Of a DNA stretch of 64,000 bases, positions 4,417 through 64,000 are shown one piece after another. Source of the DNA: an uncultured virus (IMG/VR IMGVR_UViG_3300030099_005341) (taxonomy: Duplodnaviria > Heunggongvirae > Uroviricota > Caudoviricetes); IMG/VR virus record IMGVR_UViG_3300030099_005341. One strand, written 5' to 3'. The stretch's first letter is position 1, and each line of letters opens with the position of its first letter. The notes beneath the pieces are model-generated. The model worked only from the letters and a program-made list of their open reading frames with translations, had not been told where the DNA came from and ran no database searches. The translations under genes were made by a program, and so were the position numbers.

Positions 4417-4612
4417 TATAGGTAAAGACTACAAGAACGACGCTATGCATTATGCTGTTGGTCAGGAGGTATACGGAGGTCATACAATATGTGATATAAT
4501 AGAAGAAAAAGATAAATATTCTATATACATAAAAAAGAACAATGATGTTATACCTTGGAAAGATTTTAACAAGAACATGGCGATATCTGTTGAATATAAT
4601 TTAGAATACTAA
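4391..4612 (+). CDS. Small beta-rich hypothetical protein
   Basis: IRKISIG...MHYAVGQ; overlaps neighbours in operon fashion. Confidence 0.6.
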   Translation: MGPLIRKISIGKDYKNDAMHYAVGQEVYGGHTICDIIEEKDKYSIYIKKNNDVIPWKDFNKNMAISVEYNLEY

Positions 4613-7644: not shown

Positions 7645-7646
7645 GT

Positions 7647-36500: not shown

Positions 36501-38018
36501 AACTCTGTTGGTGCAATAATGTTCTTTAATGCTAGATCTGCTATATTACAGACTTTATCAACTGTAAACTTTATAAACTGGAGTGACAATAATATATTAA
36601 AAGCTGGTTTAGCTTTTGCTAATCAACCGCAGTTTTGGAAAGACTTTAGTTATATATTTAACTCTGACATGTTAAAGCAAAGAAGAGGTGGTCAACAACG
36701 TGGTATTAACGAGGCTGAACTAGCTGAAGCTGTAAAAGGTAAAAAGAATAAAGCTCAAGCAGCATTAAAATGGTTGTTAACTAAAGGTTTTTTACCTACA
36801 CAAATAGCAGATAGTTTTGCTATTGCTTCTGGTGGTGCTACGTTTTATAGAAATAGAATTAAAACTTATTTAAAGAAAGGTTTAAGTCAAAAAGAAGCAG
36901 AGCAAAAAGCATTTGATGACTTTCAAGCTATTGCAGAGGAAACACAACAGTCAGCTAGACCTGATTTCATATCACAACAACAGGCTTCTCCATTAGGTAG
37001 ATTTATATTAGCATTCCAAAATACACCTATGCAGTATACTCGTTTAACTAAAAAAGCTGCATTAGATTTAATAAACGGTAGAGGTGATTGGAAAACAAAC
37101 GTTTCTAAAATGATGTACTATGGAGCTTTACAGAATTTAATATTCGCTAGTTTACAGTCTGCTTTATTTGCTTTAATGTTTGATGATTTTGAAGAAGAAG
37201 ATGAAAAAACAGAAAAAAGATATATTAGAATAGCAAACACAATGCTTGACTCTATATTAAGAGGTACTGGTGTAGGTGGTGCTGTAGCATCAACTTTAAA
37301 AAATATGATAATAGAGTTTGAAGCTCAAGAATCTAAAGATTGGGGTAGTGATCATGCTTACACCTTAATAGCTATGGCTAATTTATCACCACCTATCGGT
37401 TCTAAGCTTAGAAAGTTGTACTCTGGTATACAGTCTTATAGGTTTAACAAGGATGTAATACCAAGAAGAGGTTTAACACTTGATAATCCAATGTGGCAAG
37501 TTGTTGGTAATGTAACTTCTGCTCTAACAAACTTACCTTTAGATAGAGTTGTTAATAAGGCTAACAACGTTGCTGTAGCAATAGATCAAGAAATGGATAC
37601 ATGGCAAAGAGTTGCGTTGATATTAGGTTGGAACAAATGGGATCTTGGTATTAAAGACGAAGATATTGAAAAAATTAAAGCAACAATAAAAGAAGAAAAG
37701 AAAGAAGCTTCAAGAGCAAAACAAAAAGAAAAAAGAAGAAAAAAACAAGAAGAAAGAAAAAAGAATATCACACCTGATGATAGAGATGGCGATGGTAAAA
37801 AGGAGGTTCGTTGTAATGCTAAAACATCTAGCGGTGCAAGATGTAAAAACGTTACTGAATATTTAGAGCATGGTTTATGTGGTACACACTTAAGATATAT
37901 AAAAGAACCTGGTGTGTATGTTAGTAATGGTGTTTCTTATAACGTTGGAGCTAGTAATTTAAATAGATTTAGAAAAGAACATCCTAATGCTAGGCTAAAA
38001 AAGAAAGTTAACAAGTGA
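27600..38018 (+). CDS. Giant polyvalent virion protein (zincin, HAD phosphatase with nested P-loop kinase, C-terminal CCCH finger)
   Basis: HEFLH at ~31389; DFDDTL ~34590; GGAGSGKS ~34693; LTARP ~35421; FADDH ~35586; C-x10-C-x9-C-x2-H ~37812. Confidence 0.8.
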   Translation: MAELKPEQKQALERMIDELEAKNVDRDEINRQLRARVDEYKSMNEVEEKREKKKDPTNFGEFFSDSIVNIMKPTPPGKPAGSVETTEAEPNASASESEDTQSESSFIGLSNDMLNMYPPVAIQDGTSLHPYTKEPNWYERQEIQKRIYDDKRDMAGDNTTELTDEETNTTVIDGVARKEESWLRGPFKDKYTYTYTKDHPNYKGEGQEVSEQDINKYEAASWVNSLDKKAEAIASQYHDSEMQEKIKKNPLAWVNGDVRAKDVENHELQQSLIKQSKAENQDIDINQDGVYNVEDARIQGEKDLRTEAVAFEKYLKEAEGVLQKKFQDQFYKEYDDQISVAQKKVQTKYAEIFNAQYGEELDKIKKEIVKQHEIDSEKGYYAEWMTGEDISELLDKKYRKATENLHLEFEKIYAKEWEADLNKEIEQLGDEFAEKNNQWFTDSFDRMLKQFTPPGTLIPTTEYDAVDKKFDEAGIIGLPERARMNALNNAWSQVSEALSPSLTSNQLKARKAEFYGRYMRKWSMNSAGEYSQFFFKNMAETMGDKIKPLQSQAKKDMVALRDTDPELFKAVKEAMNIINIPTYDQKDITLKKQKAEAQEILDKNPEMYKSLKGILDRMSTLERANNWRIGIINNPEIKESYFKMLGKGFGHANETDGNIIKYLPFLAGLDAIGEAVDMYELAKKNPKDWTTEERIAAQLFAWKSSSDEISANISSGYRHGKMLQEAAPYIGEFVASGPVFAGTRAVAKKALTKAIMNKADDMMINLYKQGLYKGLTEAGKKQFVKNSRKAILKNRAINGLSFFVGTIAQTTANPQHYIGKTIENMTPELQMQFTLEGDEYLKLLDEGRYNELGPEPTFVEGTELSGWDAAFQGFGLTWAEFATERLGEAVPMLGKHIGEELLVDGTWLKKLYLGWYQKKNKMTPGMLRSTIKKTGWNGILGENFEEWINLPLQNIITGQPLLQGFDGEFLADTFAVTGIMAGAFTGLGGSINLMSGNFNNNPVYNVNDMFFDNKEEQKKEILRRIKTGETADLNVDIQNDNAAFFDILEILNEEGLADKLTNNKRIQQQREERHRAQELEILRRANSGDRQKLDTIDKKLEELNNSAADIKNTETPDNSQLEKINIEKAKLEVEKEKIIRPYAEAMHKENWNAGVDKLHSMYGQLQPGRKLNVRKLNTDEINALKEESILNQKKYKKETSVDGKVSYRNKDGALVSPEEANKLNNEIQEAQAGTTYGMFEASNNELILNIDQAGTAKGVSAVEHEFLHAVLNNIMDNDPAVQHVIGQAMMQHLLRLDPAQVISSDFAKRLAGYQADAMAQGTQAGWGRAQEEVITLYVDAIANGDIKMEEGPMTHLGDIMRRAFRHFGINMKWNDGASVYNWLKDFRKYYKKGKFSSGFIKTQDMQGRFKSKAILGTDLFKQAQQTEMDMRAMEEGEQQAAKSEDAYGINKKYDEKGVAGYEDIIKIYQGQKEVENEYGEKSWTRDERGSMIDKIVNRYEKRARFDTYKNDLRKALAYDPTYGVLGLILKYNQEDNPGVPLNKYINKYLGRKAIDLANQILGKDQAGDFRSNVDDIVGLQTNETGADVLLDQKLQQEYEGEIDVPNLRKELIFRNEKGEPVKGIPEDLILIVKDKVKRIVKRAGSPTDPKFKKKLQDEFKNELFKEIKNRMGAGNNYNIFIEDNWSTINKFIPTSTWVSIERMVPAAERKFTFIKTANMNPTQTQDAIDKGLISPMTSLTAGNDLHAKKKLKKGDMLDWYLNVPANTKGERKTRLAKEIATEMAFDVTMETLKLPDVIKFRKEVTDLKGWEIVNDEAALIAKQIDRDPNYKFSMDFVDSGQFLTEVNSLVPILREKGSNSQEYQDAVDLLNPFTKAFMEELLEKNPHLANNPDGYLNAIKASTNLPKELIDKVRSRDLNLYKGKSLVESVANEYAKNVDRIAKKIDLDMLLNLRSSLDIFNFHYRGLDAAKLKKSTNKPGKYRGLFDSIIENKYKDKNLNFNPGNILAMNKDAAWFNSMINPIFALDGTVEQKLEMLAKVRDQLVEINKANIDAFIYFENKLAENIGGKNGITHEFIIQLHQAQTNLAFGLRALSSIDYLYLEEGVQLLPKASSSLSRKQAANNMGRKSITDKEWVNSPEYKKQLEIYGKTNNFTSEYNKAKKQAKKEGKNNEQAELFALKKAIKKLTIKGEHLGANAITMAEISELLITGKANPESIREVIKDHKQMFGPTWVSDLMDSKVDENGKPKYGGRTNPEGELRILKTLPSNIQNNIYHISGVPAVDHLAEAGAMRAIESLLGSVNELENTKKLVKLYQSKDPAIKQKGISILDFDDTLARSKSGVRYTMPNPTGEPQPGRKVIFLAGGAGSGKSNVVRKLGLEEQGFKIVNSDIALEWLKKNHGLPEDMRDLTPKQLSTLGKLTWEARQIAARKMMKFQGNGDGIIVDGTGGSLKNMQKQVDEFKAKGYDVQMVFVETSLETALQRNRDRKERSLRDGIVKRNHEKVQGNKEAFKELFGNNFAEVKTDKLGLDDPMPNKLVKKLDKFTKGYIKGRIDATGFAQQGADLLAKGAEFDFSEFNLVVEGSKGPLFEKAQKLAEKYGTKDMFILTARPAESQKAIYEFMKSQGLEIPLKNITGLANSTSEAKALWVAEKIGEGYNDIYFADDHLENVQAVKNMVDQFDVKGKVQQAKYKESKDYSGDFNNILEESTGMGAQLTFSEAVAQLRGSKIGNWRFFVPPSADDFKGLLYYFLTKGKKGDEQMAWFQKTLLDPFNRAMRDLNSAKQSITSDYKLLRKQMPGVVKNLNNIVEGTDFTYDQAIRVYLWAKNDIEIPGISNRDTKTLVNTIENDQQLKTFADFLGKLTKQPEGYVQPSEYWTVTNIGADLESITSNEGRDFYLQEFKENRRKIFGEWYRGRLIGPNMNKIEALYGSRYREALEDILWRMENGTNRGFGSNRLTNSFSNWVNNSVGAIMFFNARSAILQTLSTVNFINWSDNNILKAGLAFANQPQFWKDFSYIFNSDMLKQRRGGQQRGINEAELAEAVKGKKNKAQAALKWLLTKGFLPTQIADSFAIASGGATFYRNRIKTYLKKGLSQKEAEQKAFDDFQAIAEETQQSARPDFISQQQASPLGRFILAFQNTPMQYTRLTKKAALDLINGRGDWKTNVSKMMYYGALQNLIFASLQSALFALMFDDFEEEDEKTEKRYIRIANTMLDSILRGTGVGGAVASTLKNMIIEFEAQESKDWGSDHAYTLIAMANLSPPIGSKLRKLYSGIQSYRFNKDVIPRRGLTLDNPMWQVVGNVTSALTNLPLDRVVNKANNVAVAIDQEMDTWQRVALILGWNKWDLGIKDEDIEKIKATIKEEKKEASRAKQKEKRRKKQEERKKNITPDDRDGDGKKEVRCNAKTSSGARCKNVTEYLEHGLCGTHLRYIKEPGVYVSNGVSYNVGASNLNRFRKEHPNARLKKKVNK
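27827..27868 (+). other. Candidate programmed -1 ribosomal frameshift signal
   Basis: In-frame G GGA AAG heptamer, 6-nt spacer, 8-bp stem GGCTCCGT/GCGGAGCC. Confidence 0.65.
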
Positions 38019-52893: not shown

Positions 52894-53643
52894 TTACAGA
52901 AAATCAATCACTTGCGAGTGATCTACATTCTCTATTAATTTGTCTACAGCTTGCTTTTTTAACTGTGAAACACGCACGTAAGAACTACTACCTTCCATAC
53001 CTAATTTAGCTGCAATTTCACTAGCAGAATGCTTGTCACAATCAAGACCATAACTAAGTCTTAGTACTTCATATTCTTTATCATTTAAGTGTTGTTTTAA
53101 TAAACTTTTTAAATAAGAGTTTAATAACACTTGGTTATATGGTTCTGATTCATCAGGTATTTGAAACACTAAATCATCTTGACCTTTAGCATCTATACTT
53201 AAGAATATAGAGTTAAAGAACATTGATACAGCTTTTTTGTCTTTACTTTTTCTCATGCTATTTGTAACGTGTTCAGGTATTCTTATTGAACCTCTATTTA
53301 TATCTATAGCTCTACGTATTGCTCCTCGTATTCTTTTAGACAAGAAACTTTTTAATGTTTTTTCTTGATCTTCAGATTTTTCTAATGTGTCTTTATCTAA
53401 TCTATCAATAGCTTTGATTAATCCTATACTTCCTTCTTGTATGAAATCCATAACAGTCATTACACCACTAGCTTGTTGTGATGTAGCAAACTTTCTAGCT
53501 AAGTTTTCTACCAACGGTAAAAATAACGTTGTTAATTCTTCTTTAGAATAATCTGTCCAACTGTTTTGTTTTTTAACTCTTTTAATTGCTGATGTAACGT
53601 CAGCTTTATATTTTATATAGTTTGGTATATTATAGTATTTCAT
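52894..53643 (-). CDS. Sigma-70-family sigma factor
   Basis: LVENLARKF, DFIQEGSIGLIKAIDR (region 2), IRIPEH, region 4 LRLSYGL...EIAAKLG...RVSQL. Confidence 0.88.
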   Translation of the reverse strand: MKYYNIPNYIKYKADVTSAIKRVKKQNSWTDYSKEELTTLFLPLVENLARKFATSQQASGVMTVMDFIQEGSIGLIKAIDRLDKDTLEKSEDQEKTLKSFLSKRIRGAIRRAIDINRGSIRIPEHVTNSMRKSKDKKAVSMFFNSIFLSIDAKGQDDLVFQIPDESEPYNQVLLNSYLKSLLKQHLNDKEYEVLRLSYGLDCDKHSASEIAAKLGMEGSSSYVRVSQLKKQAVDKLIENVDHSQVIDFL

Positions 53644-54728: not shown

Positions 54729-54838
54729 GTCCCCTGGTTTCTTGGTTTTAATTTTGCTATTATTATTCTTGTTTCATTATCATTAGGATATTTAATTTTA
54801 TTAAATTCCTCAATACGTTTCTTTAGGTCTTTGTTCAT
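54701..54838 (-). CDS. 45-aa hypothetical protein
   Basis: MNKDLKKRIEEFNKIK...NNK* fills the gap. Confidence 0.4.
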   Translation of the reverse strand: MNKDLKKRIEEFNKIKYPNDNETRIIIAKLKPRNQGTVTTAPNNK

Positions 54839-55292
54839 ATAATTTTTCGGTTTTAGGGTTTGCTACTATGTGTTTCTCGCCTATGTAATAATTCCAATAA
54901 GCTTGTACACTACATTTATCTTTATATTCATCTGGCATTGCTTGTGGTGGTTGTGTAAAACCATTATCATATATACCACCTGGTACATATTTTAACACGT
55001 CAGCACATTTAGTTATTGATAAATGTATTTTACCATAACGTTTATTGTACTCACGACCTAAAGCAATCATGTGATTATATAACCATTCATAATGAGGTTT
55101 AGATTGTCTACACCATATAGTTGATGGATGGTTCTTGTGAGCTATTTTGTAAGGTACATCTTTACCATGTATATCTACATGATGAGCAGTACATAGCATT
55201 TGAGCTGACTCAAGTATCATCTTAACCACATGTTTATTATATTGTAGTCTAGCTGCTTTATCAGGGCATTTGTCTAAGTAAAATATATTCAT
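54810..55292 (-). CDS. Pyrimidine-dimer glycosylase/DenV-superfamily protein
   Basis: MNIFYLD, HVVKMILESAQML, HKNHPSTIW, PPQAMP. Confidence 0.75.
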   Translation of the reverse strand: MNIFYLDKCPDKAARLQYNKHVVKMILESAQMLCTAHHVDIHGKDVPYKIAHKNHPSTIWCRQSKPHYEWLYNHMIALGREYNKRYGKIHLSITKCADVLKYVPGGIYDNGFTQPPQAMPDEYKDKCSVQAYWNYYIGEKHIVANPKTEKLYEQRPKETY

Positions 55293-55393
55293 GATTGTTC
55301 TTTAATTATTTTTTCTAATACTTTAACTAGTTTAGTTATAGCCTTTGTTAATTGGCTAATGTCTCTATAAAATTGTTGTTCATTTCTATTCAT
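55289..55393 (-). CDS. 34-aa coiled-coil peptide
   Basis: MNRNEQQFYRDISQL..., coupled to ligase stop and downstream start. Confidence 0.5.
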   Translation of the reverse strand: MNRNEQQFYRDISQLTKAITKLVKVLEKIIKEQS

Positions 55394-56321
55394 AATCTCT
55401 AATACATTTAAAAAATGGGTGTCTGTAGCTATTAGCTTTAGTTCTCTCAAAGAATGTAAAGGTAGCTGTTGCTTTGTGATCCACATACCACTGAGCTTTG
55501 TGTAATAAAGCTCTAAGATCTTTGTAGTTATAACCTTTACCTGGTGGACAACCGAATCTAATACCTTCTGAGTCTATCATAAGGAATTTACCTAACGTGC
55601 CTTTACGTTTACCTTTACCTTCGACAAAACCTACAATAGTAGCCTCTGCGTCGTGAAAGTCTTTAAATTTTTGTAAATTGTAAGAACGTTTTTGTTCGTA
55701 TAAGGCATTTTTTCTTAGTATAGTACCTTCGTAGCCTGTAGATAGGTTATTCTTGTGTAAATCTTCAGCGTGAGACTTAGAATATACTAATCCATATTTA
55801 AGTACTTCAATAGATGGAGATCTATGTGGTAAGCCTTGTAGCTGTTGAGCCCACGGTGTTGTGTGAAAGTCATTTTTGATATAAGCATTTCTAGTTGCAA
55901 AATCATAATGTTCATTTTCTTGTTCTGGTATAAAGTCATAACAATAAAACTTAATCTTTTCTGCAGCTTCTTTTCTATGCTCGTCTGTTGGTTTTGTTTT
56001 TCTAACAAGAGATATTATTTTCTCGAAGTCATCTTTTAGTTCGTGATTGTACAATTCGCCATCAAGAACTCTATTAGGATATTTTTGAAAATAAAACTTA
56101 AGTTGTTCAAGTATATGATTTACATTTTTAAACTCTTTACCTGTACGTGAATATGCTACAACTACATCTTCTCTTGGTTGTGTTCTTCTTTCATATTGTA
56201 TTAAACATCTAACACCATCAAGCTTTGGTTGTACATATATACCTTGTCTGTATTCTATCTCTGTTATTGGTTTTTTACTAGCGTTGTAAGCTAGCATAGG
56301 TTTTACTTTTAATTTACTCAT
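55386..56321 (-). CDS. lig: ATP-dependent DNA ligase
   Basis: PMLA, QPKLDGVR, LDGELY, YEGTILR, KRS-x-x-L-x-KFK, RHP. Confidence 0.92.
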   Translation of the reverse strand: MSKLKVKPMLAYNASKKPITEIEYRQGIYVQPKLDGVRCLIQYERRTQPREDVVVAYSRTGKEFKNVNHILEQLKFYFQKYPNRVLDGELYNHELKDDFEKIISLVRKTKPTDEHRKEAAEKIKFYCYDFIPEQENEHYDFATRNAYIKNDFHTTPWAQQLQGLPHRSPSIEVLKYGLVYSKSHAEDLHKNNLSTGYEGTILRKNALYEQKRSYNLQKFKDFHDAEATIVGFVEGKGKRKGTLGKFLMIDSEGIRFGCPPGKGYNYKDLRALLHKAQWYVDHKATATFTFFERTKANSYRHPFFKCIRDYE

Positions 56322-56607
56322 TACTTAATTTTGTTTTTAATCTTTTTATCATTTTGTTAATGATTGCACATTTCTCATATTCTTCTCTGTCTTGAAACAT
56401 GTTCATTATAGTCATTAGTTTAGCTAGTTCACCAACGTCTTTGTCTTCGTCTGTCATATCTAGCTTGTCGTAGTCTTTTGATAGTTTAGCTGCGTGCATT
56501 GCGTCATGCCAATCTAACATACTTTGTAGATTAACTATTTTAGCGACAACTTTGTTAGCTATTTTATCACAAAGTCTATCAAAATTTTCTTGTTCTTCTT
56601 TATTCAT
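56314..56607 (-). CDS. Hypothetical protein with UVR-like C-terminal helix pair
   Basis: EEYEKCAII motif. Confidence 0.6.
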   Translation of the reverse strand: MNKEEQENFDRLCDKIANKVVAKIVNLQSMLDWHDAMHAAKLSKDYDKLDMTDEDKDVGELAKLMTIMNMFQDREEYEKCAIINKMIKRLKTKLSNE

Positions 56608-56623
56608 ATATTTATATTTATAT

Positions 56624-56655
56624 TATTATCCTTGCTCGATCGTATTTAGCATGTA
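56624..56655 (-). promoter_or_regulatory. 32-bp early promoter-like motif, copy 1
   Basis: + strand TATTATCC-N8-TCGTATTTAGCATGTA, just upstream of minus-strand start 56607. Confidence 0.75.
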
Positions 56656-56988
56656 TTTATCTAATAGTTTTTGTGGTTCACCTACGAATATACACTCAAA
56701 GTCATCACCGTTACCCATACCTTCAAATATACTTATCCACGTTGTTTTACCTGGTGTCTGCCATATATAATATATATATTCTAAATCACCGTGTTTTGTG
56801 TCAAGGTATTCTATTTCCCATCCTTCTACCTTCATTGAATCTAACAATGACTCTGCTATTTCTACACCTAATCCTTCTGGATAACCATCACTATGATTAT
56901 AGAACTGTGCGTGTATTTGTTTTGGATGTTCACTAAACGATACTCCTTCTTCTCGTGTAGCAAATCTAATTTGTGCTCTTGTACTCAT
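56626..56988 (-). CDS. Hypothetical protein (MSTR...HxDGYP type)
   Basis: MSTRAQI, YNHSDGYPEGLG, DLEYIY. Confidence 0.65.
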   Translation of the reverse strand: MSTRAQIRFATREEGVSFSEHPKQIHAQFYNHSDGYPEGLGVEIAESLLDSMKVEGWEIEYLDTKHGDLEYIYYIWQTPGKTTWISIFEGMGNGDDFECIFVGEPQKLLDKYMLNTIEQG

Positions 56989-57076
56989 TATTCTTTCCAT
57001 TTAGTTTTGGTAAAACAATCTATAATACAAACTATTATAAATAGTAACCAAAAAATTGTTATTATATTTATTTCCA

Positions 57077-57343
57077 TTAATCTAATAATACATAGTATGC
57101 ATCAGGGTTATTTTTTCTAAACCAGTCAAGACCTTTTCTAAGTTCATTGACTATTTTAGGATTAGTGTTAAAACCTCTCATTTCATACACCATTGTAGCA
57201 CCCATTATAAAATCATACATGGATAACTCTATATTATTTAATTCATATTCCTCTCCTGAAAATCTGTTTTGAACAGTATTTCCTCTACTATAAACAGTTC
57301 CTTTGAACCATTTAGGTAATTCTTGTTTAGTTTTCGTTTTCAT
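57077..57343 (-). CDS. Hypothetical protein
   Basis: 88 aa, overlapping neighbour. Confidence 0.65.
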   Translation of the reverse strand: MKTKTKQELPKWFKGTVYSRGNTVQNRFSGEEYELNNIELSMYDFIMGATMVYEMRGFNTNPKIVNELRKGLDWFRKNNPDAYYVLLD

Positions 57344-57605
57344 AATATTTTTCTTTTAATGTTTCTATAATATGTCTACCTGATGCCGTGTGAAAACCAT
57401 AACTATGTGTATGTAATTCGGGTATTGGATCATTAAAGAACAATAACTTCATTAGATCTATTGGTTTTACACTTACAAACTCATTGTGCTTAAACTCTTC
57501 ATACATATCGTTACAGGCAGCGGCGATAGCTTCTGTATTGTGTCTTATTTCTTCATCTGTTCGCCAAGACAGGTATTCTTTTACCTTTTTACTTGTTAAT
57601 TTCAT
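57327..57605 (-). CDS. Hypothetical protein
   Basis: 92 aa, overlapping neighbours. Confidence 0.65.
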   Translation of the reverse strand: MKLTSKKVKEYLSWRTDEEIRHNTEAIAAACNDMYEEFKHNEFVSVKPIDLMKLLFFNDPIPELHTHSYGFHTASGRHIIETLKEKYYENEN

Positions 57606-57861
57606 TTATTATTAATTTAAATTCTTTATATTTATCTTGTTTTAATCTTTCTTTAGCATATTCAATAGGATTCTTTTGATGAGTTTTAAATGAACAATAA
57701 CTATCTGGTCCATCTTCTAGTATCTCTACGTTACCATAACCTGGCCAGTGTTTGTTATTACTAAGTGTAACTATTATTTCTTTTCTAACAGGTACATTTG
57801 AATGGTCCATGTTAAACCATATATGCTTTAAAGCTTCTCTATGTTTTCTTATTTTATCCAT
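57589..57861 (-). CDS. Hypothetical protein
   Basis: Likely start MDKIRK at 57861 after an AT-rich leader. Confidence 0.6.
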   Translation of the reverse strand: MDKIRKHREALKHIWFNMDHSNVPVRKEIIVTLSNNKHWPGYGNVEILEDGPDSYCSFKTHQKNPIEYAKERLKQDKYKEFKLIINEINK

Positions 57862-57882
57862 AATTATATTTTTTAAGTAAAA

Positions 57883-58168
57883 ACGAGGGTTAGTGCCGTT
57901 CGGTGCGAGCCTAGGAGACACTTACTAGTACACTACCTGTCGTCTTTATATTTTTTATATTTACGAGGTCGGGCAGGTGTGGTTCTTGTTATGCGGGGAA
58001 TCTAAACATTAAGACCGCCGACTAATAAACATTTGCTTTATCCTGCCGTTTCGCCAAGTGAGTAAGATGAAATAACTTGTTCACTGTGGGCTCACTTCTG
58101 AACGAAGTTACATCGCCTCCCCAAATTATTCCTACACGTCTCACGCGCTACCACCCTCACCTCGTGTG
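57883..58168 (-). ncRNA. Candidate structured non-coding RNA (~290 nt)
   Basis: GC-enriched intergenic block with several complementary pairs, including a pseudoknot. Confidence 0.55.
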
Positions 58169-58177
58169 TATAGCATT

Positions 58178-58576
58178 TTATGCTTTGTTTAATTGCTCGT
58201 TTGTTGGCTCGTCTTCTGGACAATCAACCTCTTTAAATAAGTTATGCACTTTTTCAACTATCATTTCAGTTAATTCGTAAGTGTCATTTAAGTCTATACT
58301 TTCCAGTTGTACTCTACCATCATAATCAAGACTAAAGTCAACTTCATAGCTGTCAGCATCACTGAAACTATAGTTTTCAACAGCTTTCTCAATAGCTTCT
58401 TGAATGTCATCAAGTTGAGCTGGTGTTAATGCTGGTTTATTGTAGTCATCTATTTGCTTTTGCAATATAGATATTTGTTGCTTATAATCATTTAGTTTGT
58501 CGTTAGTTTCGTTTTGTAAAAGCTCTAACGCAGCTTTTTTGTTTTCTAATTCTTGCATATTATTTAATTTAATCAT
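58178..58576 (-). CDS. Acidic coiled-coil early protein
   Basis: N-terminal heptads, D/E-rich C-half; motif copy directly upstream. Confidence 0.65.
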   Translation of the reverse strand: MIKLNNMQELENKKAALELLQNETNDKLNDYKQQISILQKQIDDYNKPALTPAQLDDIQEAIEKAVENYSFSDADSYEVDFSLDYDGRVQLESIDLNDTYELTEMIVEKVHNLFKEVDCPEDEPTNEQLNKA

Positions 58577-58579
58577 TTG

Positions 58580-58611
58580 TATTATCCATTAGTAATCGTA
58601 TCTAGTATGTA
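58580..58611 (-). promoter_or_regulatory. 32-bp early promoter-like motif, copy 2
   Basis: TATTATCC-ATTAGTAA-TCGTATCTAGTATGTA. Confidence 0.8.
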
Positions 58612-58785
58612 TTATGGTACTATAAATTCAATAGCATCTTCACCTATTCCTTCACCATTTTTAGTTACTTCTTGATTAGGGCAAACACCACAGTTTACTA
58701 TATGTTCTAGTAATTCGTTTAAACTATCAAACTCTTCATTGAAATAAGATGATAGTAATCCCCATTTATTCGTACCACACTCCAT
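58612..58785 (-). CDS. 57-aa acidic hypothetical protein
   Basis: MECGTNKWGLLSSYF...IEFIVP*; start uncertain. Confidence 0.5.
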   Translation of the reverse strand: MECGTNKWGLLSSYFNEEFDSLNELLEHIVNCGVCPNQEVTKNGEGIGEDAIEFIVP

Positions 58786-58971
58786 ATACTTTAACTCCTT
58801 TTACGTTACACATTAATTTCTTTTGCTTTATTTTCTTCTCGGTTAACAGGCTTTTGTCCTGATACTTTGGATTTTTGCTGTTCAGCTTTCTTTTTTTTGT
58901 CATACTCTTCTATATTTTTAATTAATTTTTCGTCTTGTCCTAATGTTTTTTTAAAAAGTTTTCTTATCATA

Positions 58972-59493
58972 TTATATTATTTTATATCTTTCATTATTTA
59001 CTATCACTGATAAATTTTCAACAGCAGGTTTAGCGTCAATATTTTCTTGTAATCCAGCACTATAACCTAGTTTTTCTGCGTCTTCATATTTCCATTTAGG
59101 TACAAACTCACCATTTGATAGCTTGTTAGCTTGACCAATGTAATAGTTTTTAAGACAAAAGCTTATTAAGTATTCTAATCTATCTTGCTCGTTAGGTATC
59201 AGTACGCAACTACGAGTTGAAAACTGAGTATATAAAGTTCTACCCATACTATCTTTTTTACCTGAATCAAAATACTCTGGTTCACCTTCACATCTTTTGT
59301 TTATTTGCCAATTCGGACAATATCCACCTGCTTTAGTACGTCTTACGTAACCACTAGCAAAACTCGCCACGTGTATTTCACTACCATACTGATCTTTGAC
59401 TGGTAACTTAAACTCACGTGTACCATTTTTCTTTTGTCTTTTAGTTGTAACTTCTTGTATATCAAGTAGTTGTAATGTTTCTTTAATATTCAT
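58972..59493 (-). CDS. Hypothetical protein
   Basis: 173 aa ORF; SGYVRR...WQINKR. Confidence 0.7.
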   Translation of the reverse strand: MNIKETLQLLDIQEVTTKRQKKNGTREFKLPVKDQYGSEIHVASFASGYVRRTKAGGYCPNWQINKRCEGEPEYFDSGKKDSMGRTLYTQFSTRSCVLIPNEQDRLEYLISFCLKNYYIGQANKLSNGEFVPKWKYEDAEKLGYSAGLQENIDAKPAVENLSVIVNNERYKII

Positions 59494-59644
59494 TTTTGTA
59501 TATATTTGTTAATTTACTCATATAATTATCTTCTTTCAATAGTATTTCTACTAATCTTATTATAGCTAAGTGCTCACTTGGTGCTTCAATTGTCATTCCA
59601 CAACCAAAGTCACTTTTATCTTTATATTCTATATTGTACTTCAT
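59483..59644 (-). CDS. 53-aa hypothetical protein
   Basis: MKYNIEYKDK...; ATGA overlap with upstream stop. Confidence 0.5.
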   Translation of the reverse strand: MKYNIEYKDKSDFGCGMTIEAPSEHLAIIRLVEILLKEDNYMSKLTNIYKNEY

Positions 59645-59871
59645 CTTCTATTTTTATAATCTAAATCTTTGTTATGTGTAAGAGTATCTATCATATTTTT
59701 ACTGTTTGGAAATACACTTTCGTGTATGTATATGTAGCCTTTCATCTTTATTATATCTTGCTGGTCTATCTCTTCGTACTTATCAGGTAATTGATGTAGT
59801 AAATGAGGTATAAACCTTTGCTTGTTTACTGTTAGCACGCCGTTCATGCTGTTGATTTTAAATTTATTCAT
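59641..59871 (-). CDS. Hypothetical protein
   Basis: 76 aa, directly below motif copy 3. Confidence 0.65.
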   Translation of the reverse strand: MNKFKINSMNGVLTVNKQRFIPHLLHQLPDKYEEIDQQDIIKMKGYIYIHESVFPNSKNMIDTLTHNKDLDYKNRR

Positions 59872-59886
59872 ATTTGTATTTTATAA

Positions 59887-59918
59887 TATTATCCATTTAC
59901 TGTCTTATTCAGTATGTA
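59887..59918 (-). promoter_or_regulatory. 32-bp early promoter-like motif, copy 3
   Basis: TATTATCC-ATTTACTG-TCTTATTCAGTATGTA. Confidence 0.8.
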
Positions 59919-60200
59919 TTAATCTAACCCATCTCTGTGGTTACCTCTACTGTCTGTAAAGCGTATTCCACCTTTTTCTTCTAGCTCTATAAGCGCGTGT
60001 ATAGCATTTTGAAGCGGATCTGGTTCTTGTTTGATTTCGTTTTGCCACAACATTTCTGCATCTGATTCTATCTCTGATAGTATATCGGGTGACAAATCGT
60101 TGTAGTAACCCAAGTGATGTTCTTGACCGAAACTATCTTCAACGTATACACTGTAAACAGTATTTCCTTGATATTTACTTATATGTATTTTTCTTGGCAT
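59919..60200 (-). CDS. Hypothetical protein
   Basis: 93 aa acidic ORF. Confidence 0.65.
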   Translation of the reverse strand: MPRKIHISKYQGNTVYSVYVEDSFGQEHHLGYYNDLSPDILSEIESDAEMLWQNEIKQEPDPLQNAIHALIELEEKGGIRFTDSRGNHRDGLD

Positions 60201-60223
60201 ATTATTCTTATTTAATTATTATT

Positions 60224-60436
60224 CTATCCTAACATTGTACCATAACCTCTACGTCGAGTTAACCTAGCTATTTGAGCAGCGTCACTGCTTGACATAATCT
60301 GTATGGAATTACCGGTCTTATGGTTAATTAATGGAGCGCAGCCATATTGCTCGGTCGTGGAGCAGTTGACACACACTTTGTAGCCGAGATTAACACGACC
60401 TTGAGGTATTGTACTGTTACATTTATTACATTTCAT
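60224..60436 (-). CDS. C4 zinc-finger protein, DksA/TraR-finger-like
   Basis: CNKC-x3-IP-x2-R-x7-CVNC. Confidence 0.6.
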   Translation of the reverse strand: MKCNKCNSTIPQGRVNLGYKVCVNCSTTEQYGCAPLINHKTGNSIQIMSSSDAAQIARLTRRRGYGTMLG

Positions 60437-60457
60437 ATTATATATTTTTTACATATA

Positions 60458-60489
60458 TATTATCCAATCACTATCTTATTCAGTATGTA
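60458..60489 (-). promoter_or_regulatory. 32-bp early promoter-like motif, copy 4
   Basis: TATTATCC-AATCACTA-TCTTATTCAGTATGTA. Confidence 0.8.
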
Positions 60490-60654
60490 TTATGGTGTTA
60501 TTATTTCAGGATTATCGTGTACCATCCACTCACAATTACTTAAATTATGACCAAGTCCACTTAAATATTCTTCATAATCTTGTAAGAATGGTTGTATCGC
60601 TTCATATTGAAATACTTTACCCACTTCAAAATCTAATACTGTTATATACTTCAT
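60490..60654 (-). CDS. 54-aa hypothetical protein
   Basis: MKYITVLDFEVGKVFQY...NCEWM; ATGA-coupled to upstream ORF. Confidence 0.6.
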   Translation of the reverse strand: MKYITVLDFEVGKVFQYEAIQPFLQDYEEYLSGLGHNLSNCEWMVHDNPEIITP

Positions 60655-60788
60655 TTCTTTTTATGTTTTATTTTTCTTGTATATTTCTTCTTGTTCTTGT
60701 ATATGGAACTCGACGGTGGTGAGACACCTAAATCTATGTCCACCTTCCGCCTAACGCTCCTCTTGTGTTTGTTTGTAAGTTTATTCAT
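60651..60788 (-). CDS. 45-aa basic protein with ArfA-like tail
   Basis: MNKLTNKHKRSVRRKVDIDLGVSPPSSSIYKNKKKYTRKIKHKKK*. Confidence 0.55.
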   Translation of the reverse strand: MNKLTNKHKRSVRRKVDIDLGVSPPSSSIYKNKKKYTRKIKHKKK

Positions 60789-60849
60789 CTTTCATCAGTG
60801 CACCATAACACATAGCGGTTATGAGTAATAATATTAACCATTCACCCAT
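60781..60849 (-). CDS. 22-aa TM peptide
   Basis: MGEWLILLLITAMCYGALMKDE* fills the gap. Confidence 0.4.
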   Translation of the reverse strand: MGEWLILLLITAMCYGALMKDE

Positions 60850-60851
60850 AA

Positions 60852-61217
60852 CTATAATTTTACTATGAATCTTGAAGGACCAACTATTAATTTTAGTGGA
60901 CCTGGATCGGTGTAGTATACGTGGTCACTCGCGTTTAGTACGTCTTGCCACACTTCTCCATCAGGATATATTATAGTTACTTTTCTTATTGACCACCATC
61001 TGTCGTCAAACAAGTGCAAACATTTTACTTCATTTTCTGGTACATCCATAGTGTACTCACCTTTATGTAGTAAAGAGTCTAACAGGTAATCTGTATCGTA
61101 ACACCATTCTAGTATTTCTTTCTTAGTTACCATCGTACAAGTTGTATCAAACAACTGTTGACTATAACTATTTAGTGCAAGTGCAAGTGCTGCTACACTT
61201 AATGTTATTTTCTTCAT
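60852..61217 (-). CDS. Exported early protein
   Basis: Signal peptide MKKITLSVAALALALNSYS|Q. Confidence 0.7.
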   Translation of the reverse strand: MKKITLSVAALALALNSYSQQLFDTTCTMVTKKEILEWCYDTDYLLDSLLHKGEYTMDVPENEVKCLHLFDDRWWSIRKVTIIYPDGEVWQDVLNASDHVYYTDPGPLKLIVGPSRFIVKL

Positions 61218-61229
61218 AATTTATTATTT

Positions 61230-61571
61230 TTAATCTATTTCATCACAATTCTGACAATCAATTTGTCTTTGTACTTCAGTTTTACTGTATACTTGTTGTC
61301 TATAATTAGGACACTCAAAGTCTCTACACAAGTTCATTTGTATATCTTCTAATTTACTTAGTATATCGAGTAAATTGTGTACATATATTTCCGCCATTTC
61401 TACAGGAAAACCATTAAATTTATCTTCTACAATACCTACTCTCATTGACTCAATCATATCTTCAGTAGATATTGATATTTCTTTTACTAATTCTTCATTT
61501 GTTGGTGGATTTGTACAAAACCCACTTATCGCAAGAGATAGTGCTGCTACACTTAGTGTTAATTTTTTCAT
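61230..61571 (-). CDS. Exported early protein (possible lipoprotein)
   Basis: MKKLTLSVAALSLAISGFC; C-terminal Cys pairs. Confidence 0.7.
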   Translation of the reverse strand: MKKLTLSVAALSLAISGFCTNPPTNEELVKEISISTEDMIESMRVGIVEDKFNGFPVEMAEIYVHNLLDILSKLEDIQMNLCRDFECPNYRQQVYSKTEVQRQIDCQNCDEID

Positions 61572-61582
61572 AGTTATATATT

Positions 61583-61693
61583 TTATCTACATCCATAATT
61601 ATAGTTACCGTACGCTGGACACGGTGAATATCTACTCGACCCACAAGATGATAGTAATACTATCACTGCAATAATTGCTAATAATTTTTTCAT
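61583..61693 (-). CDS. 36-aa lipoprotein
   Basis: MKKLLAIIAVIVLLSS|CGSSRYSPCPAYGNYNYGCR*, lipobox LSSC. Confidence 0.65.
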   Translation of the reverse strand: MKKLLAIIAVIVLLSSCGSSRYSPCPAYGNYNYGCR

Positions 61694-61814
61694 TGTTAAT
61701 TTGATTTAGTTATACATTTATTTTATAAGTTATATGAGTAGTACGTTTACTACTGGGATACTTTGTCTTATTAAAACTTGAGTTGATTATCAAGTGTCCA
61801 GAGACTACTCATAT

Positions 61815-61871
61815 TAGTTGTAGTGGTGAGAATCGAACTCACATATCACAGTGATATTACCATTGACTACA
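61815..61871 (-). ncRNA. tRNA-like mini element (acceptor stem + T arm, no D stem)
   Basis: TGTAGT/ACTACA stem, GTGAG-TTCGATT-CTCAC T arm, ATATCA/TGATAT arm, 3' ACTA. Confidence 0.55.
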
Positions 61872-62051
61872 TTGACATTCGTATTATTTATACTCGCTAA
61901 ATGTTTCTCAACTACGAGTGTGCTTTGATCGCTGACATTATAGTGAAGACAAATACTGCTACGAATCCACTAATATACACTGCTGTCAGAACTATAGGGA
62001 AGTAGTGATTGAACACCACTTTAGCCTTTCTTTTTAATAAGCGCAACTTCA

Positions 62052-62288
62052 TTATAGTAACTCTTTACCTCTTAGTACTACTGGAATATTGTTAGTTGCA
62101 GTGTACGACTTGTATTTAGCGAAACATGCTAACTTTTCTAGTGTATCTTTCATGATAGAATATACTTTGTCATGATTGTACTTTACTGTATCACCTTTTT
62201 TGTTAGTGAATTCGATTACTTGATTCTTGCCTATCAATGACTTACGCACTACGAATCTTTTACTTTTTAAAACATTTTCTTTTGACAT
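62052..62288 (-). CDS. Early protein, paralog of 62646-62864
   Basis: KRFVVRKSLIG...NKKGDT...YNHD...KYKSYT...NNIP shared. Confidence 0.8.
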   Translation of the reverse strand: MSKENVLKSKRFVVRKSLIGKNQVIEFTNKKGDTVKYNHDKVYSIMKDTLEKLACFAKYKSYTATNNIPVVLRGKELL

Positions 62289-62332
62289 AATTTTATTTTT
62301 TAGTTATTAATTTATTTTATTAGTTACATTTA

Positions 62333-62364
62333 TATTATCCATTACTTATCGTATTTATTATGTA
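62333..62364 (-). promoter_or_regulatory. 32-bp early promoter-like motif, copy 5
   Basis: TATTATCC-ATTACTTA-TCGTATTTATTATGTA. Confidence 0.8.
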
Positions 62365-62425
62365 TACTAAAGTAGGTAATTTGTTTAGTTGTTATTTGAG
62401 TTACCACTACTACTCCACACTCTCT

Positions 62426-62542
62426 CTAAGCGTATGATAAATAAGTAAATAGTTTCTCATAACATTTAGTTTTACTTCTACTTACCATTATTAGTTGTCC
62501 GTAGTGAATTAGTTTATAGTATTTACCATTATATCTTATCAT
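62426..62542 (-). CDS. 38-aa hypothetical protein
   Basis: MIRYNGKYYKLIHYGQL...; directly below motif copy 6. Confidence 0.45.
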   Translation of the reverse strand: MIRYNGKYYKLIHYGQLIMVSRSKTKCYEKLFTYLSYA

Positions 62543-62566
62543 ATCTTTATATTTTATTTACATTAT

Positions 62567-62598
62567 TATTATCCATTAGTAGTCGTATTTAGTCTGTA
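62567..62598 (-). promoter_or_regulatory. 32-bp early promoter-like motif, copy 6
   Basis: TATTATCC-ATTAGTAG-TCGTATTTAGTCTGTA. Confidence 0.8.
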
Positions 62599-62641
62599 TG
62601 ACATTAGCCAATTAAGTAGATACAGTAACTGGCTAGTGTCA
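62599..62641. repeat. Imperfect inverted repeat (16-bp arms, 11-nt spacer)
   Basis: TGACATTAGCCAATTA ... TAACTGGCTAGTGTCA, 2 mismatches. Confidence 0.7.
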
Positions 62642-62645
62642 CACT

Positions 62646-62864
62646 TTACCTGCAGAAAGTTGGTATGTTATTCGATGAAGTGTAAGACTTATATTTCTTG
62701 AAACAGTTCATGTTATCGAATCTTTCTTTATTCTTGTTATATACATCGTCATGATTGTAGGTAATTGTATCACCTTTCTTATTAACGAATGTTATTACTG
62801 TGTTAGTACCGATTAAGGATTTTCTGATTACAAATCTTTTTGTAGTTAATTCATTTACTTTCAT
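62646..62864 (-). CDS. Early protein, paralog of 62052-62288
   Basis: KRFVIRKSLIG...NKKGDT...YNHD...KYKSYT...NNIP. Confidence 0.8.
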   Translation of the reverse strand: MKVNELTTKRFVIRKSLIGTNTVITFVNKKGDTITYNHDDVYNKNKERFDNMNCFKKYKSYTSSNNIPTFCR

Positions 62865-62903
62865 ATTGTTTATTTTATTTATTATACATTCAACTTACAT
62901 TAA

Positions 62904-62935
62904 TATTATCCATAATGTATCTTGTTTAGTATGTA
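62904..62935 (-). promoter_or_regulatory. 32-bp early promoter-like motif, copy 7
   Basis: TATTATCC-ATAATGTA-TCTTGTTTAGTATGTA. Confidence 0.78.
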
Positions 62936-63279
62936 TAAATATAATAGTAAATGTAGTAGTGTGTAGTAACTAGATAGCTAGAATAAAGTCTGAAATATCT
63001 ACAGGGTCTGGTGATTCGGACGAGGAGGGACGACCGGAAGAGAAAACGCTGTAACGTAGGACGAAACGAAAAACGAAACGGCCGGGCGCGTAAAAAGTTT
63101 TGAGTTTTCTTTTTAGTAGTGGGGCTGAGAGGAGGGGGGCAACACTTTGTCTCGATATTTATAATGTCCTAAATGTACCGGTACCTATATATAAGGGTAC
63201 CTGTTTTTAAATATTGATTTATTTGTGTGATTATAGAGAAATATAAAGTAATATTACAAAAATAAAAAAAATACAAGTC

Positions 63280-64000
63280 ATGTCATACAAGCCGTTCAAA
63301 ATGAAAGGTCATACGTTAAAAGGACCTAAACAAAGAAAAGCTGCTCCACTACCAGGATTAAACATGGGTATGGACGCTAAAGCAACAAATGTTGCAGAAA
63401 AAGGATTAGCATCTTCTTCACCGATGCAAATGATGGAGGAAAGCCCAATGAAGATGGGTCACAAAAAATCTCCTGCTAAAGATATTAAGTCTACATACAA
63501 CAAAGCGAAAAAATACGTTAAGAAAACAGCTGATAAAGTTAAAAAGTCTAGTTTTGTTAGAGGAGCAAAAGAAGTTGGTGAAGGGTTTAAAACTATAGGT
63601 AGAACAATAGCAAACCCTGTTGATTCATTTAAAGCAGATCTTAAGCACTACAGAAAAATGAAAGCAAGTGCAAAGAAGAAAAAATCTCCTGCTAAATTAG
63701 GTGCTATGGCTGGAGCTGCTGGAGCTGCTATGAAAAAAGGAGCTAAATCTGCTGCTAAAATGGGTATGAAGAAGTCTCCTGCTAAAATGATGAAAAAAGA
63801 CGCTCCTGCTAAAATGATGAAGAAGTCTCCTGCTAAAAAGCCTTTAGTTGGTAAACAAAAAAACCTACCTGAAGGATTAAAGTCTAAGATATTAGCTTCT
63901 CCTGCTAAAATGGGTGAAAAAAGTGTAAAAACGTCACCTGGTGCAGACAGAAAAGCTATAAACAAAAAAATACTAGAAAAAAGTATTAATAAAATTAGAG
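63280..64000 (+). CDS. Lys/Ala/Met-rich SPAK-repeat protein, 3' truncated (absent from ORF track)
   Basis: ATG 63280, open to the window end: MSYKPFKMKG...KKSPAK x4, SPMK, ASPAK, DAPAK. Confidence 0.8.
   Translation, partial: MSYKPFKMKGHTLKGPKQRKAAPLPGLNMGMDAKATNVAEKGLASSSPMQMMEESPMKMGHKKSPAKDIKSTYNKAKKYVKKTADKVKKSSFVRGAKEVGEGFKTIGRTIANPVDSFKADLKHYRKMKASAKKKKSPAKLGAMAGAAGAAMKKGAKSAAKMGMKKSPAKMMKKDAPAKMMKKSPAKKPLVGKQKNLPEGLKSKILASPAKMGEKSVKTSPGADRKAINKKILEKSINKIR

What the first reader, a model, noticed from the sequence alone, without database searches (positions are those of the whole stretch)
57883..58168. Candidate ~290-nt pseudoknotted non-coding RNA in the early region
Seen: a GC-enriched block between tightly packed genes, with no credible ORF in the operon direction. 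Complementary pairs (+ coordinates): GAGGGT 57885 / ACCCTC 58153; GAGAC 57915 / GTCTC 58138; ACGAGGT 57963 / ACCTCGT 58159; GTCGG 57968 / CCGAC 58018; GGGGA 57995 / TCCCC 58118; and hairpin TAACTT-GTTCA 58073 / TGAAC-AAGTTA 58099, whose loop CTCACTT (58091) pairs with AAGTGAG (58056). I do not recognise tmRNA, RNase P, 6S or intron signatures. Inference: a possibly undescribed phage RNA (decoy, anti-defence RNA or ribozyme) transcribed from motif copy 2.
Basis: partly seen in the sequence, partly recalled or inferred. Interest (0 to 1): 0.72.

Follow-up and report, generated by a model that had tools for sequence, protein, structure and literature searches.

The report
New pseudoknotted RNA module, marine phages
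The gap between two small genes of this marine Flavobacteria-type phage holds two separate folded RNA modules, one of which belongs to a previously uncatalogued, widespread family with an almost letter-perfect ~45-base core whose job is still unknown.

Summary
The flagged gap (57863-58177) is real non-coding sequence, read on the minus strand like its neighbours. It is two independent modules, not one ~290-nt RNA. Module Y (58168-57958) belongs to an uncatalogued family: 39 distinct copies in viral contigs plus the window, and 65 more in marine metagenomes. A closing stem P1 covaries. Helix S2 (GGCAGG/CCUGCC) keeps pairing through two compensatory and four G.U variants. A near-invariant core could form a crossing helix S1 (GUGGU/ACCAC), which is untested. 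Two sites take swappable hairpin cassettes. Module B (57943-57878) is a second covarying family that ends in a U-run. Rfam 15 and ARAGORN find nothing for either. Y is always sense to its flanking genes. It is single-copy in four complete related genomes and absent from a fifth, which carries a different cargo at that spot. Some copies lie beside tRNA-Asp genes or tRNA-like elements. A T-run follows P1 unless another module follows. My reading is an accessory, stable 3'-end RNA domain whose core binds an unknown partner. The structure is shown; the function is inferred.

The parts
57958..58168 (-). Module Y: the whole clamp-plus-core element, about 211 nt
   Evidence: Instance calling. The covariance model R1, built from 66 minimal forms without the window, hits 57959-58062(-) at 41.3 bits, E 4e-10. 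That is the only significant hit in the 64-kb window.
58159..58165 (-). P1 5' strand, ACGAGGU
   Evidence: Pairs with 57963-57969. P1 forms in 39 of 39 instances. 7 of 8 P1 pairs show changes on both sides.
57963..57969 (-). P1 3' strand, ACCUCGU. Here it is followed by UAAAUAUA, not a U-run.
58150..58156 (-). GGGUGGU. GUGGU (58154-58150) is the proposed S1 5' strand.
   Evidence: Invariant apart from GCGUGGU in L079. Its pairing to ACCAC rests on complementarity only, because these columns were fixed by the search patterns.
58048..58149 (-). P2 insertion site. In the window it holds module X (GUGAG 58144-58140 pairing with CUCAC 58062-58058) with a unique apical hairpin (about 58073-58111).
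   Evidence: This site is 5 nt long in the minimal forms and up to 142 nt elsewhere. The X helix covaries: UGAG/CUCA against CGAG/CUCG, and GUAAG/CUUAC in L038. The window's apical insert has no match in the fetched loci.
58042..58047 (-). S2 5' strand, GGCAGG
   Evidence: Pairs with 57972-57977. 100% of cells are paired. Compensatory AGCAGG/CCUGCU (3 sequences) and GGUAGG/CCUACC (1), plus G.U variants.
58035..58041 (-). Invariant unpaired AUAAAGC
   Evidence: Invariant columns in A1 and A3. These letters were part of the search patterns, so their invariance is partly by construction.
57984..58034 (-). P3 insertion site, a variable hairpin
   Evidence: The stretch between GGCAGGATAAAG and CCACACCTGCC is 7 to 108 nt in the 34 instances; L015 has no hairpin there. 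The same insert recurs in L292, which has no P2 insert.
57972..57983 (-). ACCAC-A-CCUGCC: S1 3' strand, linker, S2 3' strand
   Evidence: The linker is A or G in the family.
57944..57962 (-). AU-rich spacer between Y and B, AAAUAUAAAAAAUAUAAAG
   Evidence: 21 of 104 instances have an AU spacer in place of a T-run, and another module follows it.
57878..57943 (-). Module B: a second conserved structured element that ends CCCUCGUUUUU, 17 nt before the ATG of the 90-aa gene
   Evidence: 100% identical over 66 nt in L009 and L007, and present in L061, L032, L006, L001, L005 and L072. 7 of 12 predicted pairs have compensatory changes.
58577..58612 (-). Copy of the repeated promoter-like motif, directly upstream of the 132-aa gene
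   Evidence: 8 copies in the window (families D1 and D2).

Best explanation
Module Y is a single-copy, accessory RNA gene-like domain of marine phages related to Flavobacteriia phages. It is transcribed in the sense direction as the tail of a short message; in the window this is the 3' UTR of the 132-aa gene.

Its two ends are clamped by stem P1. Inside sits a compact, nearly invariant core: helix S2 (GGCAGG/CCUGCC), probably crossed by S1 (GUGGU/ACCAC), plus about 17 invariant unpaired bases. Two peripheral sites accept interchangeable hairpin cassettes.

When Y is the last module before the next promoter, P1 plus a U-run acts as the intrinsic terminator and 3'-end cap. When another module follows, as B does here, the U-run moves to that module.

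Shown: family membership, strand, P1, S2, the modular inserts, copy number and the accessory distribution. Inferred: termination and end protection. Speculative: the invariant core is a recognition surface for a trans partner (a host or phage protein, or a small ligand), so that Y persists as a stable small RNA after the message decays.
For: Size of the family: 39 distinct instances in viral contigs plus the window, 65 distinct minimal forms in marine metagenome contigs, and 90 distinct cores under one regex.

Structure: on A3, 94.8% of cells are paired and 9 pairs change on both sides against 3.7 in shuffles, with 0 of 500 shuffles reaching the observed value; slid controls give 38-52% paired. 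A P1 5' strand pairs better with its own 3' strand than with those of other variants (mean -11.2 against -6.8 kcal/mol). G.U pairs on this strand mark it as the RNA strand.

Orientation: 92 of 92 flanking-gene matches lie on Y's strand.

Copy number: one copy in each of 4 complete related genomes. Y is absent from a complete relative that carries an X-only clamp element at the same place.

3' end: a T-run follows P1 in 76 of 104 instances. An AU spacer plus a further module follows in 21 of 104. The other 7 have neither.

A separate lineage (L012, L015, L266, L293) places Y directly behind a Bacteroidetes-type promoter, TTTG-N20-TAtcTTTG; the motif is recalled and was read by eye. A tRNA-Asp gene lies directly after Y in L026 and L171. 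tRNA-like elements lie directly before it in L079 and L080.

Precedent: abundant, persistent early non-coding RNAs were reported in Cellulophaga phage phi14:2 (passages read, bioRxiv 10.1101/2020.03.07.982082).
Against: No expression data exist for this phage.

The window's own Y has no U-run after P1. Three genes (p90, p92, p88) lie after B and before the next promoter-like motif, so any termination here must be leaky.

S1, and therefore the pseudoknot, is unverified. A nested alternative (GGGUGGUU/AACCAC-N-CC) is the predicted minimum-energy fold.

The folding energy of the region is not better than shuffled sequence.

The invariance of the core is partly built in, because the searches were anchored on it.

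No partner has been identified. The adjacent 132-aa protein is also present in the genome that lacks Y.
Confidence: 0.5

Rival explanations
1. Y is purely a cis element: an elaborate intrinsic terminator and 3'-exonuclease barrier (an intercistronic stabiliser) with no trans role. Its core is conserved only because it must fold tightly.
For: P1 is followed by a T-run in 76 of 104 instances, and the T-run moves to the last module of an array. The simple scan finds no other terminator-like site on the minus strand between 54000 and 64000. Different cargos share the same clamp-plus-U-run frame.
Against: There is one copy per genome although the promoter-like motif has 8 copies. A fold-only constraint predicts covariation in the core, yet about 17 unpaired bases are invariant across lineages whose P1 and flanks differ. 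Y is dispensable in a complete relative. The window's own Y has no U-run.
Confidence: 0.22
2. Y is a ligand-sensing RNA, either a riboswitch-like conditional terminator or an RNA sponge for a small molecule such as a nucleotide signal.
For: It has a compact core that may be pseudoknotted, invariant unpaired bases and variable peripheral hairpins. P1 doubles as the terminator stem. The L012/L015 lineage has a promoter-Y-gene layout. Two competing pairings for the CC of CCUGCC, S2 or GGG, could form a switch.
Against: Most copies lie in 3' UTRs with a promoter-like motif between Y and the next gene. The downstream genes are not coherent. No alternative antiterminator is evident in the minimal form L015. 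No riboswitch family matches in Rfam.
Confidence: 0.1
3. Y is a new class of self-cleaving ribozyme that trims multi-module transcripts.
For: The invariant junction bases, the possible pseudoknot and the length-variable peripheral stems match the usual pattern of small ribozymes. Y lies among tRNA genes, tRNA-like elements and other RNA modules that need processing.
Against: No twister, hammerhead, HDV-like, pistol, hatchet or twister-sister model matches, even at E up to 10. The topology does not fit HDV: a single base lies between S1 3' and S2 3' (my reading of the alignment). There is no cleavage evidence.
Confidence: 0.1
4. Y is a DNA-level element, such as a mobile MITE-like insertion with terminal inverted repeats, or a protein-binding or origin site, and not an RNA.
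For: Its position differs between relatives, upstream of the 132-aa gene in some and downstream in others. The ends are inverted repeats. Hairpin cassettes are shuffled between sites and genomes.
Against: Orientation is strictly sense, 92 of 92. G.U pairs occur on one strand only, in P1 and S2. Internal helices covary. There is one copy per genome. The scan of 185,579 reference genomes gave only a chance hit inside a Marinobacter transporter gene.
Confidence: 0.05

Closest known systems
Early intergenic long non-coding RNAs of Cellulophaga crAss-like phage phi14:2 (g004-g005 and g005-g006 junctions; bioRxiv 10.1101/2020.03.07.982082, passages read)
   Same: Non-coding stretches among early genes of a marine Flavobacteriia phage. 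They are transcribed early, are more abundant than most mRNAs and persist. Their function is unknown.
   Different: No sequence or motif similarity: the Y, X and B motifs are absent from phi14:2 positions 1-9000, and the Y mid-motif is absent from the whole record. The phage is a different type. Part of the phi14:2 region scores as a tmRNA-like gene.
Rho-independent terminators and 3'UTR-derived small RNAs of bacteria (general knowledge)
   Same: A stem that closes the RNA's ends, followed by a U-run at the end of a transcription unit. The stable 3' fragment could act in trans.
   Different: The hairpin interior is a 45-nt invariant core, possibly pseudoknotted, with cassette sites. There is one copy per genome. 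The window's copy lacks the U-run.
GOLLD and ROOL large ornate RNAs (Rfam families; abstract of bioRxiv 10.1101/2024.12.08.627333 seen in the listing; that they are phage-borne and lie beside tRNA genes is recalled)
   Same: Orphan structured RNAs with ornate, modular peripheral elements. The resemblance in setting (phage-borne, near tRNA genes) rests on recall, not on a call.
   Different: No Rfam match. Y is far smaller, 57-290 nt. No evidence of multimerisation.
H-type pseudoknot aptamers and operators, for example the preQ1, SAM-II and guanidine-III riboswitches and the T4 gene 32 operator (recalled)
   Same: Two interleaved short helices with A-rich joining strands inside a compact domain.
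   Different: The loop order is unusual: 1 nt between S1 3' and S2 3', and a long loop that carries P3. No Rfam match. Most copies are not in a 5' UTR. S1 is unverified.

Membership tests
Any Rfam 15 family (4227 models) | Covariance-model score at or near the gathering threshold | tested here: not met
   Window at gathering threshold: 0 matches. Region at E up to 10: only a chance mir-4081 hairpin, 24.7 bits against a threshold of 70. 9 related loci at E up to 1: only a chance sR5 snoRNA match at 21.4 bits against a threshold of 40, outside the element. 9 loci with minimal forms at E up to 5: nothing on Y.
tRNA / tmRNA | Cloverleaf, or a tRNA-like domain with a tag reading frame, detectable by ARAGORN | tested here: not met
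   0 genes in the window. Nothing on Y in 42 loci. The adjacent tRNA-Asp genes in L026 and L171 are separate genes.
Module Y family (defined here) | P1 clamp; GGGUGGU; AAC-GGCAGG-AUAAAGC; GAACCAC-R-CCUGCC-C; in this order on the sense strand | tested here: met
   All motifs are present once each, at 58165-57963 on the minus strand. Model R1, built without the window, scores 41.3 bits, E 4e-10.
H-type pseudoknot | Two helices whose strands interleave, each supported as a helix | tested here: inconclusive
   S2 is supported: 100% paired, 2 pairs with compensatory change and 2 with G.U change. S1 never varies and was fixed by the search patterns. A nested alternative exists.
Intrinsic (Rho-independent) terminator | A stable stem-loop immediately followed by a U-run at the end of a transcription unit | tested here: inconclusive
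   Family: a T-run follows P1 in 76 of 104 instances. Window: Y's P1 is followed by UAAAUAUA, so the feature is not met. B ends CCCUCG followed by UUUUU, so it is met by sequence. Termination activity cannot be tested here.
Riboswitch | A conserved aptamer in the 5' UTR of a coherent gene set, with an expression platform | tested here: not met
   Y lies mostly after a stop codon, with a promoter-like motif before the next gene. The downstream genes vary: the 132-aa gene, tRNA genes or other RNA modules. Ligand binding cannot be tested here.
Known self-cleaving ribozyme classes | A match to the class consensus, and site-specific self-cleavage | tested here: not met
   No Rfam match to any class. 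Cleavage cannot be tested with these tools.
phi14:2 early lncRNAs | Sequence or structure homology to the g004-g006 intergenic RNAs | tested here: not met
   Regex and blastn against NC_021806 positions 1-9000 gave only a 26-nt, 85% match at E 0.004.

The most novel reading that the evidence does not exclude
Y, together with its neighbours X, B and the tRNA-like elements, is a cassette in a hypervariable island of RNA genes. Marine Flavobacteriia phages exchange these cassettes the way they exchange anti-defence protein genes. On this reading the invariant core of Y is an active site or a high-affinity binding pocket. It would be either a new self-cleaving ribozyme class, or an RNA sponge or decoy that captures a host immune component or signalling nucleotide.
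Probability: 0.2. Interest if true: 0.85.

Novelty: new variant of a known kind. Interest (0 to 1): 0.62.

Why it matters
Phage genomes are tightly packed. A 315-nt non-coding gap filled by two conserved, covarying RNA modules is therefore very likely under selection.

Family Y is abundant in ocean metagenomes. Its core is conserved letter for letter across lineages that differ in clamp sequence, in flanks and in promoter type. That pattern is typical of catalytic or ligand- or protein-binding RNAs, not of simple hairpins.

Y is accessory and single-copy, and it sits at a site where relatives carry other RNA cargos. This suggests that phages trade folded RNAs as modular fitness factors.

The minimal natural form, about 57 nt in L015, is a ready construct for probing, binding and cleavage assays.

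Tried and rejected
- Thermodynamic support: the MFE of the 315-nt gap is no better than shuffles on either strand. Minimal forms give z from -0.3 to -4.3.
- blastn of the region against 50,697 phage records: no match.
- tblastn of the 132-aa neighbour against the same records: no match.
- The window's own assembly is not held. The nearest record, G001, has no match.
- An exact 39-mer from the window's hairpin found nothing in viral contigs.
- The 90-aa neighbour has no relatives in viral contigs.
- The genome-contig scan gave one chance hit inside a Marinobacter transporter gene.
- Scans that left the S2 5' strand free found no variant in viral contigs: 14 of 14, and 6 of 6 real hits (5 further hits were chance coding matches).
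- Sequencing runs: 20 DNA holders, all labelled marine but one coded row; no RNA holder listed. Read laying was not used, because contigs of DNA runs cannot show RNA ends.
- PHROGs and Pfam on the neighbouring small proteins gave nothing informative.
- Supplements of PMC10690425 (10,006 candidate viral structured RNAs): 6 text files searched without a hit, but 3 files were not searched (two of them hold no text because unpacking stopped at a size limit). This family may therefore already be among those unnamed candidates.
- Full-text search for the core 13-mers: 0 papers.
- Ideas considered and dropped: twister, HDV-like or hairpin-ribozyme resemblance, SD/anti-SD mimicry by P1 (P1 covaries away from that sequence), promoter mimicry by GGAUAA, and codon-like pairing of AUAAAGC. 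None has support from any call.

Full report
**Where the finding lies**

The finding sits in the 315-nt gap 57863-58177. It separates two minus-strand genes, a 132-aa gene (58178-58576) and a 90-aa gene (57589-57861). GC content is 0.39-0.46 there, against about 0.23-0.33 around it.

Rfam 15 gives nothing at gathering thresholds for the whole window. At E up to 10 it gives only a chance microRNA-like hairpin. ARAGORN finds no tRNA or tmRNA. The minimum-energy fold of the gap is no better than shuffled sequence on either strand, with z = -1.04 (minus) and -0.38 (plus). What rescues it is comparison with related sequences.

**Relatives and the two modules**

The phage has no close DNA relative among 50,697 deposited phages. 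Its terminase is 44% identical to those of Flavobacterium, Cellulophaga, Tenacibaculum and Maribacter phages, and 62% identical to that of an uncultured podovirus. Of the 20 sequencing runs listed as holding the region, all but one coded row are labelled marine metagenomes; all are DNA runs.

Eleven viral contigs encode the 132-aa protein. A blastn of the gap, read on its minus strand, against them showed three short conserved blocks separated by unrelated sequence. A fourth block occurs elsewhere in those contigs. The gap therefore holds two independent modules, here called Y (58168-57958) and B (57943-57878).

**Module Y**

Pattern scans with two 15-mers of the core and a script gave 39 distinct instances, the window included. 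One gapped scan of metagenome contigs added 65 distinct minimal forms.

The common plan, 5' to 3' on the sense strand, is:
- P1 5' strand (ACGAGGU in most copies), then 2-3 variable bases
- GGGUGGU
- site P2, which is 5 nt (UUAAC), a hairpin, or module X
- AAC-GGCAGG-AUAAAGC
- site P3, a hairpin; the stretch between the two flanking motifs measures 7 to 108 nt in the instances, and L015 has no hairpin there
- GAACCAC-(A/G)-CCUGCC-C
- P1 3' strand

The smallest natural form, L015, is about 57 nt and has neither insert.

P1 forms in 39 of 39 instances, with many different sequences. A P1 5' strand pairs better with its own 3' strand than with foreign ones (mean -11.2 against -6.8 kcal/mol).

On the 66-sequence alignment A3, 94.8% of cells are paired. 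Nine pairs change on both sides, against 3.7 in shuffles, and 0 of 500 shuffles reach the observed values. Sliding the 3' partners drops pairing to 38-52%.

S2 (GGCAGG/CCUGCC) is 100% paired. Its variants are AGCAGG/CCUGCU (3 sequences) and GGUAGG/CCUACC (1), both compensatory. There are four kinds of single change, and all give G.U pairs.

S1 (GUGGU/ACCAC) would cross S2 and make a pseudoknot. It never varies, and my patterns fixed it, so it remains a prediction. ViennaRNA prefers a nested alternative, GGGUGGUU/AACCAC-N-CC, which competes with two pairs of S2.

A covariance model built from A3 without the window finds the window's copy at 41.3 bits, E 4e-10. It finds nothing else significant in the 64 kb.

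**The window's own copy of Y**

Site P2 holds module X: GCGCGUGAGACGUGUA, then a hairpin, then AUCUUACUCACUUGGC. Its helix GUGAG/CUCAC covaries elsewhere to GCGAG/CUCGC and GUAAG/CUUAC. The apical hairpin (58073-58111) matches nothing in the fetched loci. The P3 insert recurs in one metagenome contig, L292, whose copy has no P2 insert.

- P1 is right.
- The local hairpin is a real inverted repeat, but it lies in an insert specific to this lineage.
- Two pairings join Y to B, which are separate modules.
- Two involve variable inserts.
- The loop pairing competes with the covarying X helix.

**Module B**

B is 100% identical over 66 nt in L009 and L007, although the neighbouring protein is only 71% identical there. 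It also occurs before, after or far from Y in other contigs. Seven of its 12 predicted pairs show compensatory change. It ends CCCUCGUUUUU, 17 nt before the ATG of the 90-aa gene.

**Context**
- Every flanking-gene match lies on Y's strand, 92 of 92.
- The 132-aa gene lies just downstream of Y in 23 loci and just upstream in 18. A 45-aa gene lies upstream in 38.
- A T-run follows P1 in 76 of 104 instances. In 21, including the window, an AU spacer leads into another module. Seven have neither.
- After the T-run usually comes a promoter-like motif. The window has 8 copies of it, one directly before the 132-aa gene. The phage encodes its own sigma-70-family protein.
- A distinct lineage places Y behind a Bacteroidetes-type promoter; the motif is recalled and was read by eye.
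- tRNA-Asp genes directly follow Y in L026 and L171. tRNA-like elements with a 7-bp acceptor stem and a T arm directly precede it in L079 and L080.
- Y is single-copy in 4 of 4 complete related genomes. It is absent from a fifth complete genome, where an X-only clamp element occupies the same place before an identical B.
- A scan of one genome for each of 185,579 prokaryote species gave only a chance hit in a coding region.

**Interpretation**

Y is an accessory RNA domain with clamped ends and a strongly constrained core. Most likely it is the stable 3' end of a short transcript. P1 plus the U-run would provide termination and end protection. The invariant core would be a recognition surface for a partner not yet known.

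Rival readings are a purely cis terminator or stabiliser, a ligand sensor, a new self-cleaving ribozyme, and a DNA-level mobile element. Strict sense orientation, one-strand G.U pairs and single copy number argue against the last.

The nearest precedent in kind is the pair of abundant, persistent early non-coding RNAs of Cellulophaga phage phi14:2. They share no motif with Y.

No paper in the searchable library holds the core 13-mers. The unnamed candidates of PMC10690425 could not be checked fully. Earlier notes of this scan report other uncatalogued pseudoknotted RNAs in marine phages. None matches this sequence.

Noticed in passing
window 57878-57943 (-): Module B is its own conserved family. 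The outer stem covaries. An inner helix GNNU/GNNC shows three compensatory variants. A palindromic CUAG 5' of that helix could pair with a CUAG in its loop, which would make a second possible pseudoknot.
   Followed up: partly
window 54758-62936 (-), 8 copies: A repeated promoter-like motif, about ACTAAATACGA-N7-8-GGATAATA on the minus strand, lies directly before small genes. It does not look like the Bacteroidetes -33/-7 consensus. The phage has its own sigma-70-family gene at 52894-53643.
   Followed up: partly
L330 (NC_021806.1, phage phi14:2) 4031-4502: ARAGORN calls a tmRNA with tag GSSVQKLAMVA*, and the Rfam tmRNA model scores 46 bits (threshold 47, E 2.6e-16). It lies in the unannotated g005-g006 gap that the phi14:2 paper reports as an abundant early non-coding RNA of unknown function.
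   Followed up: partly
L079 about 675-757; L080 about 642-719; L005 2590-2870; L010 2740-2960: tRNA-like elements with a covarying 7-bp acceptor stem and a GGUUCGAUUCC T arm. ARAGORN is negative, and the best tRNA model match is tRNA-Sec at 19.7 bits. In L005 and L010 they are fused to an X module. They sit next to Y.
   Followed up: partly
L001, L002, L031, L055; L008, L017, L079, L171; L002, L005, L011, L019, L089 and others: The same hairpin cassettes, for example CAAAGAGGTTTGGGATAGACG..., GTGAATTGGCTCGACTAGTGATAGC... and CCGAAACTCGGCTCACCGAAACTCGG, turn up at site P2 in one genome and at site P3 in another. Insert modules are therefore shuffled between sites.
   Followed up: no
L003/L004 about 620-750 and 2830-2960; L009 3370-3475: Relatives carry a different cargo, an X module alone, inside the same kind of clamp plus U-run at the position where Y sits in other genomes.
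   Followed up: partly
L011 2104-2550: Two Y modules in tandem, with different P1 stems and different inserts.
   Followed up: no
window 27600-38018 (+) and 15860-24349 (+): Giant ORFs of 3472 and 2829 aa. The first has an LPD14 polyvalent-protein domain and a zeta-toxin-like kinase / AAA domain, and no RNA polymerase signature. The second matches a virion structural protein family.
   Followed up: no
window 63451-63921 (+): Short tandem-like DNA repeats (TCTCCTGCTAAA...) inside the open-ended ORF 63280-63999. They suggest a protein with repeated short peptide units.
   Followed up: no
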